Part shown: piece after piece, positions 39,001-51,000 of the stretch
Position numbering within the stretch: position 1 is the stretch's first letter
How the letters are laid out: the number at the start of each line of letters is the position of its first letter
Source: Ruditapes philippinarum
Taxonomy: Eukaryota
Length of the DNA stretch: 64,000 bases
Assembly (NCBI RefSeq): GCF_026571515.1
Contig: NW_026857281.1
Coordinates: 1-64,000, forward strand
Direction of reading: 5' to 3'
Position numbers: made by a program

Positions 39001-42000
39001 CAATCAAAATGCACTGGAACAACATATATGTTTATGGATTGAAACTTTAATGGGAACAAGCAAATTAAAACATTTACACAGTAATGACAGAAATATATGA
39101 GTTTTTGTTCTCTTGTTCGGTGAACTTAAAAACTTAAAGATTGGTGAACTTAAAAACTTAAAGATGTGAATAAATGAGTAGAAAATCCGTCCAGAATGAT
39201 CACCTGTCAAATCACAAAATATGAACATGACCTGTTTATCTCTTCAATAACTCAGAAGCTAGAAAGCTAAAACCTAAATACGAGTGTGTCATAAACATTG
39301 CCTTAAGAAATGAGCATATTAAAATATTGACAAAATGACATACAAACCCAATTACCTATGACTGTGTTGTAAATATTAATGATGCGGTAGGTATTTTGTC
39401 AAGTTTGCAACCACTTTTCTCGCTTGAACCAAGTGTGCAACCACGTCACGTTCTGCCTCTTGTAAAGGATGACATACATTTGTATTGGTCCTCCGTGCAC
39501 CCTTGATTTTAATGCATATGAAAATTGGGGGAGGGGGCAGACGGGCGACGGGGTAAGAATTTTATTTTTCTACGAGTTATAAAAGAACGCAACCTTTTAT
39601 TCTTAAAATAACCTCCCTGAATTTTAAGAAATATCCATATTGTTATTATATTGAAACACACAGTACCAACCAAAACTATTGCTTAAACCTGAGATGTAAT
39701 TTTATATTTATTAACAATAAGTATTGCACAAAGACAATATGCTATCGATCAATATGGACCGGCAGAGTTTTCTTAAGAAAGAAAAGGTTCAATGCATTCA
39801 TGTAAATTTCAAAGACAAAATTAATACACGTATTGATCAAGATCAAAGCATTAAAGATCCATTTATTATTCTTCTGTTACATGAGAAGGAAAAACTAAGT
39901 TTGTAAAAACTTACTGAGATATTAAGATTCATCTACAAATATTGAGAGGATATCCATGAACGCCGCCATCTTGTAATTATGATGTTTTATTGTAAGTTTA
40001 AAGGTGAATAAGGTGACATGAACATGAAGCAGACGTCAGAAAACAATTAACTTGCAATCATTGAACAAATGAAGAAAGGTTTAGTAACAATTTGCAAACA
40101 TGTCATCATATCTAAGGTGTGTGGTAAATGGCATACTTATTTCTTCATTACTTGTAAGTACGTAGTGCTTCCCTATCCATTCGGACAAATCTTAATTTTG
40201 TTCATATAAAATCATTGCATTGTTTATTTCAAAGTTATCTTGTCCGGTGAGTTATGGCTCGTTTAAAGTCATAACAAACACAGCACTGTTGTTAGTGTTT
40301 TAAGAAATAACAAAGGAACGTTAGAACGCGACAAAACGGTTTTTCTTTGTGAGGGTCTTGAGTGCTTTTTCACACGAATCATTTAAATGTTACGACAATT
40401 TATCTCTCCAAGACGGCATCATTTATATATTTCTTACAATTTTTGGCCTAGAGGGACATTAGAAATAAATGAACATTCCATATCAGCAGCATCGATGCCT
40501 ACGATTATTTTGAGCATTCCACTAAGCTTCTATCAATAAATATTTTTAAAGATAAAACCTTTTTGCTTCCGGTTTCTCGACTTTGACCCCTGTTTTTAAC
40601 CATTCATGTATTAATAATTCAGCGTTGCCCTAGAAACTTTATAAGGCTTTCATTGAACGTCGCCTTTCCTTGTTGATCTCGTTTATTATATTTTATCTTG
40701 TATCTTCTTATATTCTTTCTATATTATCATCAAGTAATTCAGCAATGTCATACCGAATCTCCCTATATTGTCTGGTTCAAGAATTTATCTGGTTTCCAAT
40801 CTAAAATTACTACATGTATTTGCCTGCTTCCCAGTTGTACATTAATATATTTGTATGGTTCCCTGGCGGATGTTTTACTGATAAAACAGTGAGTGGAAAG
40901 GTATTCACAAATGCAAAATCGTAGGTAATGCGATTTTTTCTGGTCGTATTGAGATATTATACAGGTAGTAGACACAGTCAAAGAAATTCTGAATCACTTG
41001 AAAACCCTTATGTCCAGAAAATGGCACATTCGCCTTTTTTACTACACGTGAATATATTTTTGTCGTTGCAGAAAATTTATCAAATCTGCAAAGGATACGA
41101 CATCAAAAATAGCCATGTCGACTGATAAACAGAGAGAAGAAACAGAACTGCACAAGCTTCTGGCTGACTTAGAACAACAGTGGACAGACAACAAGACAGT
41201 GGATATAGCTAAAATCCTAACGAAGCAACTCTCTAGCTCGGATAATCCATTTGCTCTGGTTGTGTTTATATTAGACAATGCAAAGCAAACGCAAACTTTG
41301 AAAAACAAAACGTTATCATTATTTGCGCTGACAACCTTTGAACAATGGGTCAATGAACATAAAAATGGGATCGATTTTACTCAACTCCTAAGTAAAGATG
41401 TTCAATTGCAAATATTTACAATTTGCACAAGGCATCATACGAAACTATATGATTCTGCTATCAAGTGCTTCCAGCTCTCTCAAGTGAACAATGAGTTTTA
41501 CCTTCAAATTATTCGACAGTTCCTAGAAGATCATAAATTCCAAGAAGCAGCCTGTTGGACAAATAAACTTGGACTGCAACATTACTTCGATATTACAGAA
41601 ATCGTGCTACCACTGCTTGTAAATTGTGAAACGCTAGCTTTAGAAAATTATGTCCGTGGAATACCAGAGCTTCAAGAGAAACTTGTCCTGTATTTGGATC
41701 ATCTTTGCGATAAAAAGACGGACCTTGTTTCACTTAAGCAATATATACTAATAGATGGCGTCACAAAGAAGGATAAATTTGGGATAGGGTATCTTAAGAA
41801 GCTAGCTATCAAACTTCTCAAGTTATACGATATACCGCAAGGTAAATATTCTTTTTATGTTGGTAGGATAAATCATTTTTATGATAAATTAAGATATAAA
41901 ATTGCAGAAGATTCATTTGACGCTTTTAAGATAGATATTGGGGTTTTTTTTGACATGAGATTAACGTTGAGTGATTCAATGTATCATCTTAACGCTGTGA

Positions 42001-48000: not shown

Positions 48001-51000
48001 TGCACTATTTCAGATTTCGATATCAATTTAGCATTAAGGCATTAAATCTGTTTTCCATTCATACCTAACAATATGAATTGTTCCTTGTCATAAAAAGCTT
48101 CTGAATCAATTATCTGTTGACCGGTAAAAGGACCATTTTGGACCTCTTGGTTATATGCTTCCAACCACAAACTATTTTACAGGGCAAATGTCTAATGTCA
48201 TCTTTCTCATCAGATTGTGTTAAAAGAAGGAAAGACTCAGCCACATGCCGGTTCATCGATTGATTCAAAGCAAGACTGTACATTGATGGATTCAGAACAA
48301 GTTCATTCATCCATGGATTCAGAACAAGCCTGTCAATCGAATGAATCAGAGCAAAATTTTAGTGCTATTGATAGCAAAAAAGAAAATGAAACAAAACAAC
48401 TAGCTCACGTTGGTAAAAAGAAAGGCAAATCATCCAGTAAGTAGTTTCCATCCAGTTAAAATGTATATGACTTGTATATGTGTTAAGTTAATATCAAATG
48501 TTGAAATGTCAGAAGGGCGATTAAATAATTCACTGTCGACGATATGAACTAGTGGGTTGTTAACAAAAAGTTGATATATGTATGGTACATAGTCGCACAG
48601 CTGGGAACAATGGGGAAATGTAAAAGAAACTTTTCGGGCACTATCCCGTTTTATTATATACAATTTTACTGAAATATTTAGGGTCTCAGTTGGTCGAGTG
48701 ACAGACATAATTGACATTTTGGCAAATATTGTAATCATTGGTTGAATTTAGATAGCTTTGAACTGTAAATAAAATCCCTTTGTATATGTTTTAGGGAAAA
48801 GGATACCTTTTTTCAAAAGTAAAGTTTTTTACTCCACTATTGCTTTAAGATTATGTTGATGTGGTTTTCGTGTGTTTATTCCTATTGTTAGAAGCCATTG
48901 CGCCAACAGAGAAGGGTTTGAGCAAGATTGTGCGGTTATGTTTTGGTAAACCGTTAGATAAATTAGAACAATTATCGGATTGGGAAAGACGACCGTTGCG
49001 AGACCAACAAATACAATACGCAGGTAACAATAAATATTGATCTTATGAAAGAGAAACCTTAAGTCAATTGTAGCTTAGACTTCGTGCAACAAAAAACACT
49101 TATTTTCTATTTTTGTATGGACGCATTTTAAAATGAAATTATATTTTTAATAAGAAGACTTTACTAAGGGTAATTGTGACCAATAGTTATATTAAGTTAT
49201 TGTTTCTAATAATTACAATTAGTTATTTTTCCAAAAGTTATAATGATTTATTTTTTCAGAGTATATTTTTTCTGAAGTTATTTGAGTTATGGTTTCCAAT
49301 TTTATTTAATTAATTGGCATTTTCTGAAAGTAATAAAAACTAATTGTTAATTAGTTATTGTTCCTAATAAATACCGCGAGTTTATCTAGAATGCGTACTC
49401 AAATTACAGCTTCACGGCTTTTAAGTGTCTCCGAATGTATTTGTTTATCTCAAGATAAGTGTAGAAGTTATATGTGTCCGAAAGTAACGCATCGTAACAT
49501 GAACCCCTCAAATATAAGAATTATCCAGAGTACTTCTTGTGCATTACTTGCACTAGTAGTGAAAGCAGTGCAAATCATTTTAGAAGATCGCACTAATTTT
49601 GGAAATGGTACACTACCGATACAACAGAATATTTATAAGTTAATAATAACAAGCCTGGTTGCATGTAAATGCAATGAAAGAAACTACAATTCCATAGAGT
49701 ATATTTATTATACATTTAACGAGTAAACAAGTTTTATTTATATATAAATTATTGTTGTCAATCTAACATGACCGAAAGTTGTCAAAACCTCTTTAAGCTC
49801 TTGATGCCTATGTCTTGCTGGAAGTATATGAGGAACTGTTGAGATTAGCAAAGATTGAGAACCTTGATATTGATGTAGAACAAAACATTGGAACGACTTG
49901 GTTGAATCAAAGTAGATCGGAGAGACGCAAGACACTACATAGAGAAAGTCATTCACAGGTTTACCAAATTAATATCTTCAAGATTGTGTTGCAAGTCGTA
50001 CTATTTTTTCCAAATAGTTGATGTTATTAAAGTTCTTAGAAATATTCTCCCTTTTTTGAAAGATAAAATGTACATGTTCTATATTTCAAAAGATTCAATG
50101 TTTTAAAGATAATAAAAATGTTATTTGTCAAAATGATATTTTTGATCTTTTAATATGAAATGTGTCACAACTACATGCACTAGTGGAATAGGCAGCATTT
50201 TCATGTCATATGTGTAATAAGGATATTCATTTTTATTTCATTGCCCAATATGCATATTTAAAGTAAAGGACATTATCATTAAGTTAAAAGCTACTGTACA
50301 TTTCAATTTAAACATCGACTTGTTTTTCTTCAGGCAACAGACAAGGGGTCACCAAGAAAATGACAATCTAATTCTACATGCTGAAAACCATTCTTGGGAC
50401 GGTTAAAAGGAATTTGTGCTTGTATGTCTTTTGTCCTCAACTTATGATAGAGGTGTATTTTGCTCTGATTAAATAACATATATAGATCTAATTAAAAACC
50501 AATTTAACAATATGAACAACCAAAGTGATTAATAAATTCAAATTTTATGTTTTAAGACTTTTGGACCTCAGTTGAGTTCCGCTAAATGAAACTTATTTAC
50601 GCTAATTATTGTACATCAGTATTTTTTTTCATTTATTTATTACTATATGTACTTTTTGTATATATTTACTTACTGAATATAGCATATATTTATAATCTCT
50701 TCTCATAATGGTGCAATGCTTTTGAAAGTACCTATATTAACATGACATGTTTCAGTTTATTATGTTATCATGATTATACGTATTGTGTATTTGCCTTTAT
50801 CTCAATAAAACAATAACGACATACGCTGTGTGTTTTCAAATATACTAAGACTCGAACCATTTTTATTAACTAGATAGTCTAACATAGTTGTCTATATTTA
50901 TCATATAGAATTATAGGCTAGATCCTTGTCTTCAAAACAAAGTTTATCATCGTCGTCCTCTTTCACAAACCTAACACCGCAGTCGCCGACCTGAACCTTC

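What the first reader, a model, noticed from the sequence alone, without database searches (positions are those of the whole stretch)
41072..50363. Mut-7/EXD3 exonuclease with intact DEDDy site but no MUT7-C domain: a Nibbler-like architecture in a probable mollusc
Seen: complete N-terminal helical domain plus ExoI/II/III (D-x-E, D, Y-x3-D), then a stop about 60 aa after ExoIII, with UTR-like DNA and transposons downstream and no MUT7-C-like exons that I could find. Established: human EXD3 and C. elegans MUT-7 carry a C-terminal MUT7-C (PIN-like plus Zn) domain, whereas Drosophila Nibbler, which trims miRNA and piRNA 3' ends, lacks it. Inference: an independently truncated, diverged paralogue that could be a dedicated small-RNA trimmer, i.e. 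an undescribed branch of the mollusc piRNA/miRNA pathway.
Basis: partly seen in the sequence, partly recalled or inferred. Interest (0 to 1): 0.72.

Follow-up and report, generated by a model that had tools for sequence, protein, structure and literature searches.

The report
Clam-like EXD3/Mut-7 exonuclease gene, tail unresolved
This is an intact gene for an RNA-trimming exonuclease of the Mut-7/EXD3/Nibbler family from a bivalve-like mollusc; its usual last domain is missing from the 14 kb that follow it, but the window ends too soon to say whether the domain is truly lost.

Summary
Window 41115-49958 (+) carries nine phase-consistent coding exons (668 codons, no stop). They encode the helical N-terminal domain and a DEDDy 3'-5' exonuclease domain of the MUT-7/EXD3/Nibbler family, with ExoI, II and III intact.

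No MUT7-C coding sequence is detectable anywhere in the window on either strand. This was tested with 120 homologues, a family profile, a MUT7-C-only profile with shuffles, a frameshift-tolerant scan and Pfam.

The site matching the family's EXO/MUT7-C junction is a poor donor (CAG|gtttac). The other 8 of 8 donors are GTA. The frame stops 20 codons later.

- The window ends 14,042 bases after the last exon, so distant MUT7-C exons cannot be excluded.
- "Paralogue" is not shown. The sequence evolves fast, but the oyster orthologue is about as diverged and the branch position is unresolved.
- The small-RNA-trimmer role is inference.

A 2024 paper reports MUT7-C loss only in drosophilids. It also records a mosquito "loss" that was an annotation artefact.

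I put about 0.5 on a truly MUT7-C-less product. Interest is modest.

The parts
41072..41114 (+). Stretch between an acceptor-like ttgcag (ending 41071) and the ATG. It is either 5' UTR of exon 1 or a short coding extension; which one is unresolved.
   Evidence: The frame is open from 41052. The tblastn alignment to P0001 begins at 41085. The near-identical fragment P0126 differs from the window in the six residues before the shared Met, which favours ATG 41115 as the start.
41115..41841 (+). Exon 1: start codon and most of the helical N-terminal domain (NTD).
   Evidence: 47% identity to P0001 residues 244-501. Sequence hit to PDB 7jw3, E 1.4e-7. The AlphaFold model of this exon alone has pLDDT 93.6 and matches the 7jw3 Aedes Nibbler NTD at TM 0.77. 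Donor AAG|gtaaat.
42733..42806 (+). Exon 2: end of the NTD.
   Evidence: tblastn block 42708-42806; phase-consistent splice sites.
43616..43812 (+). Exon 3: NTD-to-EXO connecting helices.
   Evidence: 48% identity to P0001 residues 524-585. Family HMM positions 301-357, E 7e-11. Splice sites.
44642..44884 (+). Exon 4: Ser-rich linker and the start of the EXO domain, with ExoI (D-x-E).
   Evidence: Family HMM positions 381-437, E 1.3e-16. 5 of 5 columns conserved at 90% or more are kept.
46669..46805 (+). Exon 5: EXO domain.
   Evidence: 62% identity to P0001 residues 678-724. HMM positions 441-487.
47326..47435 (+). Exon 6: EXO domain with the ExoII Asp.
   Evidence: 55% identity to P0001 residues 724-763. 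HMM positions 487-525.
48214..48436 (+). Exon 7: acidic/Ser-rich variable linker inside the EXO domain. An alternative donor lies after 48412.
   Evidence: Placed from phase: exon 6 ends in phase 0 and exon 8 needs phase 1. Both candidate donors satisfy this. There is no sequence conservation (0-3 of about 25 columns), as in the relatives' linkers.
48892..49023 (+). Exon 8: EXO domain up to the Tyr of ExoIII.
   Evidence: Pfam PF01612, E 1.8e-6, 28.3 bits against a cut-off of 23.6. PDB 7jw2, E 4.4e-9. 19 of 20 conserved columns kept.
49798..49958 (+). Exon 9: the rest of ExoIII (x3-D) and the basic C-terminal helix. It ends where all relatives' similarity ends.
   Evidence: 50% identity to P0001 residues 839-892. 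No homologue aligns beyond 49958. It is followed by CAG|gtttac.
49959..50021 (+). Read-through tail: 20 hydrophobic codons and a stop (50019-50021). This is the likely end of the protein if the weak donor is not used.
   Evidence: ATTAAA lies at 50026 and AATAAA at 50111, but such hexamers occur 3.7 times per kb in the window.
50334..50363 (+). Unsupported.
   Evidence: Its by-eye likeness to the start of MUT7-C is not above chance: -0.2 bits, and 14.5 bits in the frameshift-tolerant scan, a score reached by 131 of 426 bins.
50022..64000 (.). Downstream stretch with no detectable MUT7-C or other protein domain; repeat-rich. It is either intergenic DNA or a very long intron.
   Evidence: Repeats.

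Best explanation
The locus is a functional gene of the MUT-7/EXD3/Nibbler family in a bivalve-like mollusc.

Shown:
- Nine phase-consistent exons encode a HEAT-like N-terminal domain and a DEDDy exonuclease domain with all catalytic residues.
- The exons have been kept open by selection.
- No MUT7-C coding sequence exists in the window.
- The position that corresponds to the family's EXO/MUT7-C junction is a degenerate donor followed by a stop 20 codons on.

Inferred:
- Transcripts of this locus end in or just after exon 9, giving a two-domain NTD-EXO protein of about 688 residues. That is the architecture known from Drosophila Nibbler.
- By analogy with the family, the protein would be a Mn2+/Mg2+-dependent 3'-5' exoribonuclease acting on single-stranded RNA ends, such as Argonaute- or PIWI-bound small RNAs.
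- It would bind RNA more weakly than full-length relatives, because MUT7-C adds RNA affinity.

Whether this gene is the species' only EXD3 or an extra copy is open.
For: Intact model:
- 668 codons without a stop, 8 of 8 AG acceptors and 8 of 8 GTA donors.
- 0 of 300 neutral simulations at comparable divergence stayed free of stops; 17-23 stops were expected.
- 58 of 67 family columns conserved at 90% or more are kept. The family's minimum is 55 and its median 65.
- Against a 96%-identical public fragment (P0121), exon 1 differs at 5 of 119 sites, while the adjoining intron read-through differs at 5 of 34 (Fisher p 0.044).

Family membership:
-.
- PDB sequence hits 7jw3 and 7jw2.
- The exon 1 model matches the Nibbler NTD at TM 0.77.

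No MUT7-C in the window.

The junction:
- The donor is CAG|gtttac, against GTA in the 8 other donors.
- The largest of the 8 introns is 1784 nt, against at least 14,042 nt needed to reach any further exon.

Biochemical role of MUT7-C: an NTD-EXO construct bound RNA about 8-fold more weakly (PMC11347159, passages seen).
Against: - The window ends 14,042 bases after exon 9, so MUT7-C exons could lie beyond it. GT is retained at the junction and the phase there is 0.
- 119 of the 120 best-scoring homologues carry PF01927. That search was scored on a region that includes MUT7-C and was limited to 634-2018 aa, so the figure is biased upward.
- PMC11347159 reports loss only in drosophilids. It also reports that an Aedes 'loss' was an isoform-annotation artefact.
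- No transcript evidence was available.
- The poly(A)-signal hexamers after the stop are expected by chance.
- No decayed relic of MUT7-C was found that would prove loss in place.
Confidence: 0.5

Rival explanations
1. This is an ordinary full-length EXD3 orthologue. Its MUT7-C exons lie beyond the 3' end of the window, after a repeat-filled intron of more than 14 kb. The read-through stop would then be intronic, or would at most define a minor short isoform.
For: - The family is almost universally three-domain (119 of the 120 listed; 174 of 192 proteins with an EXO match in my set).
- PMC11347159 reports loss only in drosophilids and shows how an isoform misled earlier work.
- GT and phase 0 are kept at 49958.
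- The downstream DNA is repeat-rich, so an intron could have been inflated.
- The window has a further 30 kb of repeat-rich, gene-poor DNA upstream.
- The divergence is matched by a bona fide orthologue, Ostrea.
- Two mollusc-like database proteins stop at the same junction: P0040 reads 13 residues past it, starting with Val, and P0159 ends there. Short forms or partial models of normal genes therefore occur.
Against: - The junction donor differs from all 8 other donors of the gene at +3 and matches the usual donor pattern only at GT.
- The required intron would be at least 7.9 times the longest and about 18 times the median of the gene's introns.
- No MUT7-C signal was found in 14 kb.
Confidence: 0.35
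2. This is a partial (5') duplicate of EXD3 that lost its 3' exons at duplication. It is now non-functional or decaying, that is, a young unprocessed pseudogene or gene fragment.
For: - The sequence has the most unique departures from otherwise near-invariant columns (21 against 0-15) and sits at the low end of conserved-column retention (58 of 67).
- Related but non-identical fragments exist in public protein sets. P0121 is 96% identical. P0126 is 86% identical and ends out of frame relative to the window.
- The junction donor is degenerate.
Against: - There are no stops or frameshifts in 668 codons, and 0 of 300 neutral simulations achieve this.
- All splice sites are intact.
- Catalytic residues and 58 of 67 conserved columns are kept.
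- The exon is more conserved than the intron against P0121.
- P0126's frame change lies at an A-rich run and may be a sequencing error in that record (inference).
Confidence: 0.08
3. This is an assembly artefact: the 3' part of the gene has been misplaced or collapsed, so the locus only appears truncated.
For: The assembly has at least one gap in the window (N run 20422-20555). The downstream region is rich in tandem and dispersed repeats, where misjoins are common.
Against: There is no N run or abrupt composition change between 49958 and 64000. The weak donor and the in-frame stop are properties of the sequence itself.
Confidence: 0.05

Closest known systems
Bivalve 'exonuclease mut-7 homolog' (EXD3), e.g. 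Mercenaria mercenaria isoform X2 (P0001) and Ruditapes philippinarum (P0002)
   Same: Same NTD and DEDDy EXO domains, collinear over P0001 residues 244-892. Identity is 49% in exon 1 and 53% over exons 2-9. The similarity ends at the same junction.
   Different: These proteins continue into a 260-residue MUT7-C domain (PF01927), for which the window has no counterpart. Many also have a long, low-complexity N-terminal extension that was not found upstream here. The window sequence is much more diverged than these are from each other (Mercenaria against other heterodonts 58-85% in exon 1).
Nibbler (Nbr), the insect member; structures 7jw2, 7jw3 and 7jw6 ('Exonuclease mut-7 homolog'; 7jw3 is the Aedes aegypti Nibbler NTD)
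   Same: If the gene ends after exon 9 it has the two-domain NTD-EXO plan. The exon 1 model superposes on the 7jw3 NTD (TM 0.77, E 1.4e-7). Exon 8 matches the 7jw2 EXO domain (E 4.4e-9). Nibbler trims miRNA and piRNA 3' ends (PMC11347159, passages).
   Different: About 19-21% identity in the NTD. The window sequence clusters with bivalve EXD3 and not with insects, so any domain loss would be independent of the drosophilid one. According to PMC11347159, Aedes Nibbler does carry MUT7-C.
C. elegans MUT-7 and human EXD3
   Same: Same family: a DEDDy exoribonuclease with an NTD. MUT-7 is Mn2+/Mg2+-dependent on ssRNA (PMC11347159).
   Different: Both carry MUT7-C, which raises RNA affinity about 8-fold and, in worms, docks MUT-8. 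That domain is not present in the window.

Membership tests
MUT-7 / EXD3 / Nibbler family of 3'-5' exoribonucleases | HEAT-like helical N-terminal domain | tested here: met
   Exon 1 alone: family HMM positions 19-271, E 3e-57. PDB 7jw3 by sequence, E 1.4e-7. Model pLDDT 93.6, all-helical, TM 0.77 to 7jw3.
MUT-7 / EXD3 / Nibbler family of 3'-5' exoribonucleases | DEDDy (RNase D-like, PF01612) exonuclease domain with ExoI D-x-E, ExoII D and ExoIII Y-x3-D | tested here: met
   PF01612 on the exon 8 piece, 28.3 bits against a cut-off of 23.6. The motifs are read. None of the nine changed conserved columns is a D, E or Y. PDB 7jw2 and RNase D hits.
MUT-7 / EXD3 / Nibbler family of 3'-5' exoribonucleases | Exoribonuclease activity on single-stranded RNA | not testable with these tools
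   Inferred from conserved catalytic residues only.
Canonical three-domain EXD3 / MUT-7 | C-terminal MUT7-C domain (PF01927, PIN-like plus zinc finger) after the EXO domain | tested here: inconclusive
   Absent from the whole window on both strands. The window ends 14,042 bases after exon 9, so absence from the gene is not established.
Nibbler-type two-domain form | Protein ends shortly after the EXO domain (no MUT7-C) | tested here: inconclusive
   Consistent with the weak donor CAG|gtttac and a stop 20 codons later. No transcript data were available.
Nibbler-type two-domain form | Descent from the drosophilid lineage in which MUT7-C was lost | tested here: not met
   The best relatives are bivalve EXD3 proteins, and the exon 1 NJ tree places the window within bivalves. 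The loss reported in PMC11347159 is specific to drosophilids.
Nibbler-type two-domain form | Trims 3' ends of Argonaute/PIWI-bound small RNAs | not testable with these tools
   No expression or small-RNA data were available.

The most novel reading that the evidence does not exclude
A bivalve lineage has lost the MUT7-C domain of its MUT-7/EXD3 exonuclease independently of drosophilids. The loss may have occurred in the orthologue or in a fast-evolving extra copy. The result is a Nibbler-like NTD-EXO enzyme under purifying selection. This would be the second known origin of that architecture in animals and a natural test of what MUT7-C is for.
Probability: 0.45. Interest if true: 0.55.

Novelty: new member of a known kind. 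Interest (0 to 1): 0.33.

Why it matters
MUT7-C is an ancient RNA-binding appendage kept by nearly all animal MUT-7/EXD3 proteins, and the only reported loss is in drosophilids (PMC11347159). Drosophila Nibbler is also the only family member with an assigned biological role.

A second, independent loss in a mollusc would allow a comparison: does shedding MUT7-C go together with a shift to trimming Argonaute- or PIWI-bound small RNAs? It would also add a component to the little-studied mollusc small-RNA machinery.

If the domain merely lies beyond the window, this is an ordinary though fast-evolving EXD3 orthologue. The main lesson would then be the one the paper already gives for Aedes: apparent domain losses in this family are easily produced by incomplete models.

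Tried and rejected
1. A relic of the first MUT7-C exon at 50334-50480. By eye, the peptide after the strong acceptor and a neighbouring frame resemble the family's conserved start of MUT7-C. The MUT7-C profile gives -0.2 bits there, and to a different part of the profile. My frameshift-tolerant profile scan gives 14.5 bits, a score reached by 131 of 426 150-nt bins. Rejected as chance.

2. 'Closest to Veneridae, therefore a diverged venerid paralogue'. Identity is highest to Mercenaria and Ruditapes. Exclusive shared residues do not favour Veneridae (1, against 4 for Solemya and 3 each for Mactra, Unionida and P0006). Mercenaria is simply the slowest-evolving comparator, with 0 unique departures. 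Rejected as evidence of affinity.

3. The 0.48 kb direct repeats 53326-53799 and 56725-57206 (96.9% identity) as LTRs of a retroelement. They have no TG..CA ends and no matching flanking duplication. No gag or pol domain lies between them. Not supported.

4. Poly(A) hexamers after the stop as evidence of a 3' end. Their density is 3.7 per kb, so they carry no weight.

5. Pfam on single exons. Only 1 of 7 ORF pieces reached significance because exons are short. The family profile was used instead.

Stop-free pieces were used instead.

8. Rfam and tRNA scans of the window found nothing.

9. Literature searches for a mollusc Nibbler or MUT7-C-less EXD3 returned nothing relevant. One search was badly framed and uninformative.

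10. The DDE_1 hit upstream (1 of 92 pieces) was not located among the 18 non-RT pieces re-scanned singly, of 20 re-scanned in all.

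
Full report
**Scope and limits.** The window is 64,000 bases at about 26-35% G+C, with one N run at 20422-20555 that I left alone. It is not human: every informative match is to bivalve or other invertebrate proteins. The joined-exon protein was never built, searched or folded, so no whole-protein result exists in this report. I therefore had no genomic DNA or transcripts from this species or its relatives.

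**The observation.**
- Exon 1 (41115-41841) searched alone found one long relative among 1908 candidates. This is the Mercenaria mercenaria 'exonuclease mut-7 homolog isoform X2' (P0001, 1153 aa, PF01612+PF01927), at 48% identity and E 9.5e-62.
- tblastn of P0001 against the window gives eight collinear + strand blocks between 41085 and 49958, covering its residues 244-892.
- From these blocks, the local sequence and splice phase I derived nine coding exons: 41115-41841, 42733-42806, 43616-43812, 44642-44884, 46669-46805, 47326-47435, 48214-48436, 48892-49023 and 49798-49958.
- They total 2004 nt, or 668 codons. Every phase fits, 8 of 8 acceptors are AG and 8 of 8 internal donors begin GTA. 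Introns are 455-1784 nt.
- Exon 7, the acidic linker, is placed by phase only and has an alternative donor after 48412.
- ExoI (D-x-E) is in exon 4, the ExoII Asp is in exon 6, and ExoIII (Y-x3-D) is split between exons 8 and 9.
- On single exons Pfam reached significance for only 1 of 7 ORF pieces: PF01612 on exon 8, 28.3 bits against a cut-off of 23.6. A family profile built from 120 homologues matches the exons over profile positions 19-641 of 906.
- By sequence, exon 1 hits PDB 7jw3 (E 1.4e-7) and exon 8 hits 7jw2 (E 4.4e-9), both named 'Exonuclease mut-7 homolog'.
- An AlphaFold model of exon 1 alone (50-row alignment, pLDDT 93.6, all helices) matches the Aedes aegypti Nibbler NTD 7jw3 at TM 0.77, E 1.4e-7. 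The next fold scores E 0.02.

**Is it a live gene?**
- The 662 whole codons examined contain no stop. Random substitution of the same exons at 0.2-0.3 changes per site gives 40-56% amino-acid change, similar to the observed distance to the nearest relative. It produced 17-23 stops on average and 0 of 300 stop-free runs.
- The window keeps 58 of 67 family columns conserved at 90% or more. Family members keep 55 at the minimum, 59 at the 5th percentile and 65 at the median. The nine changes are K>E, R>K, L>V, K>S, L>R, L>S and three L>I.
- A 153-residue public fragment, P0121 (label jgi, 5983-nt contig), is 96% identical to the end of exon 1 and reads on into the intron as the window does. It differs at 5 of 119 exon sites and 5 of 34 intron-translation sites (Fisher p 0.044).
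- Together these results indicate purifying selection on a working NTD-EXO protein.

**The missing domain.** Five independent tests found no MUT7-C anywhere in the window, on either strand.
1. 0 of 120 EXD3 homologues give any tblastn hit at E<=1e-3 outside 41000-50100.
2. Family profile positions about 650-906 have no match among 3625 stop-to-stop pieces of 12 aa or more; the best is about 2 bits at E about 7.
3. A 273-position MUT7-C-only profile scores 4.9 bits at best. Five of five shuffled windows reach 4.8-7.5 bits.
4. Pfam on all 93 pieces of 45 aa or more from 50-64 kb gives no PF01927 and nothing better than E 0.0097.
5. A frameshift-tolerant profile scan shows no outlier; the top scores of 19-24 bits are scattered over both strands.

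**A possible relic, rejected.** In the frameshift scan it scores 14.5 bits, which 131 of 426 bins equal or exceed. I reject it as a relic.

**The junction.**
- All homologues lose similarity at 49958.
- The unnamed bivalve-like protein P0040 (920 aa, the only one of the 120 listed without PF01927) departs from the family at the equivalent point. It ends 13 residues later, and the first of these is Val, as expected if a phase-0 intron beginning GT is read through (the reading is inference).
- In the window the junction is CAG|gtttac. It keeps GT and phase 0, but it differs at +3 from all 8 other donors of the gene. The other GTs before the stop are no better.
- The frame runs on for 20 mostly hydrophobic codons to a stop at 50019-50021.
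- ATTAAA (50026) and AATAAA (50111) follow, but such hexamers occur 3.7 times per kb here, so they carry no weight.
- Any further exon would need an intron of more than 14,042 nt, at least 7.9 times the gene's longest.
- The downstream DNA holds a tandem array at about 52.07-52.71 kb, two 0.48 kb direct repeats, an inverted repeat and no recognisable protein domain.

**Divergence and the 'paralogue' claim.**
- Exon 1 is 48% identical to Mercenaria and 31-47% to the other 16 sequences tabulated (16 named taxa plus unnamed P0006, P0040 and P0122). Mercenaria is 58-85% identical to the other heterodonts.
- Over exons 2-9 the figures are 53% (window to Mercenaria) against 62-80% (Mercenaria to those taxa).
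- The window shows 21 unique departures from otherwise near-invariant columns, against 0-15 for 16 comparators. It is the fastest-evolving sequence compared.
- Three results stop this from proving a paralogue. The Ostrea orthologue, which has MUT7-C, is about as far from the other tabulated sequences (31-44%). Residues shared exclusively with one group do not favour Veneridae (1, against Solemya 4 and Mactra, Unionida and P0006 3 each), so the identity gradient reflects Mercenaria's slow rate. The NJ tree, on exon 1 only with Kimura distances, puts the window on a long branch at the base of Unionida plus the other heterodonts, a position open to long-branch artefact.
- A second EXD3 in the same genome could not be sought.
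- P0126 (77 aa, 86% identical) ends out of frame relative to the window at an A-rich run. It may be a sequencing error or another copy.

**Literature.** I read the abstract, the matching passages and section 28 of PMC11347159 (Nucleic Acids Res 2024). It states the following:
- Nibbler is a two-domain NTD-EXO protein, whereas C. elegans MUT-7 and human EXD3 add MUT7-C.
- Most animal homologues carry MUT7-C, and it 'was lost specifically in drosophilids'.
- Aedes Nibbler does carry MUT7-C but was earlier treated as lacking it, probably because of an annotated isoform.
- MUT-7 without its C-terminal domain binds ssRNA about 8-fold more weakly.

Its Supplementary Figure S6, which gives the taxon sampling, was not available to me. 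Searches for a mollusc Nibbler or MUT7-C-less EXD3 found nothing relevant. One search was badly framed and uninformative.

In my own protein set, 18 of 192 proteins with an EXO match lack a MUT7-C match. Several of these are visibly partial, and none carries a source name: P0040 came unnamed and the other 17 from the nameless representative library. One gastropod-like entry, P0159, also ends at this junction.

**Verdict.** The gene and the absence of MUT7-C from the window are real. My weights for the explanations are:
- About 0.5 that this locus encodes a MUT7-C-less, Nibbler-like protein. This rests on the degenerate donor, the early stop, the compact gene against a gap of more than 14 kb, and the accelerated evolution.
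- About 0.35 that it is an ordinary EXD3 whose last exons lie beyond the window. This rests on the strong family prior, the retained GT and the documented Aedes precedent.
- About 0.08 that it is a decaying partial duplicate.
- About 0.05 that it is an assembly problem.

The 'paralogue' and 'dedicated trimmer' claims remain inference. Either outcome falls within known architectures of a known family, so the interest is modest unless downstream sequence and transcripts confirm an independent domain loss.

Noticed in passing
window 20782-22182 (+), next to the N run 20422-20555: Retrotransposon-like (virus-like) stretch. An open frame matches the C-terminal half of Pfam RVT_1 (model positions 102-204 of 205, E 3.9e-21) and continues into a long C-terminal part with no Pfam match. 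The reverse-transcriptase reading frame is broken once by an in-frame stop. Its N-terminal half is missing, either truncated or lost in the assembly gap.
   Followed up: partly
window 8273-10298 (-): Neighbouring gene on the opposite strand. A 218-aa open piece matches DUF4559 (PF15112, E 8.4e-13), and a coiled-coil piece at 8273-8707 gives weak apolipoprotein-like and Exo70-like hits. About 30 kb of repeat-rich DNA without other recognised genes separates it from the exonuclease gene.
   Followed up: partly
window 1-41000, exact place not found: One of 92 ORF pieces of 62 aa or more matches the DDE_1 transposase domain (PF03184, E 7.1e-8). It was not among the 18 non-RT pieces re-scanned singly, of 20 re-scanned in all.
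   Followed up: partly
window 53326-53799 and 56725-57206 (+): Two direct copies of a 0.48 kb repeat, 96.9% identical over 485 columns and 3.4 kb apart. They have no TG..CA ends and no matching flanking duplication, and no gag or pol domain lies between them. This is more likely two copies of a dispersed repeat, or a local duplication, than LTRs.
   Followed up: partly
window 52069-52714: Tandem array with a period of about 67 nt (also read as 127 nt), about 7 copies, 69-73% matches.
   Followed up: no
window 57821-57911 and 57973-58063: Inverted repeat with 91-nt arms, 90% complementary and 61 nt apart. It looks like a hairpin or MITE. Just downstream, at 58.86-59.22 kb, is a G+C-richer patch with overlapping ORFs on both strands.
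   Followed up: no
proteins P0040 (920 aa) and P0159 (535 aa), found: Two unnamed mollusc-like EXD3 proteins stop at the same EXO/MUT7-C junction as the window. P0040 reads 13 residues past it, beginning with Val; P0159 ends at it. Either partial models or short, intron-retaining isoforms are recurrent at this junction in molluscs.
   Followed up: partly
proteins P0121 (153 aa, 96% identical) and P0126 (77 aa, 86% identical): Near-identical fragments of exon 1 exist in public protein sets. P0121 reads into the intron as the window does. P0126 has different residues before the shared Met and ends out of frame relative to the window. They may come from a close relative, another haplotype or another copy. 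Their sources were not traced.
   Followed up: partly
window 1997-2813 and 12071-13326: Further families of direct repeats of 105-168 nt at 161-162 nt spacing (2.0-2.8 kb), and of 128-134 nt (12.1-13.3 kb).
   Followed up: no
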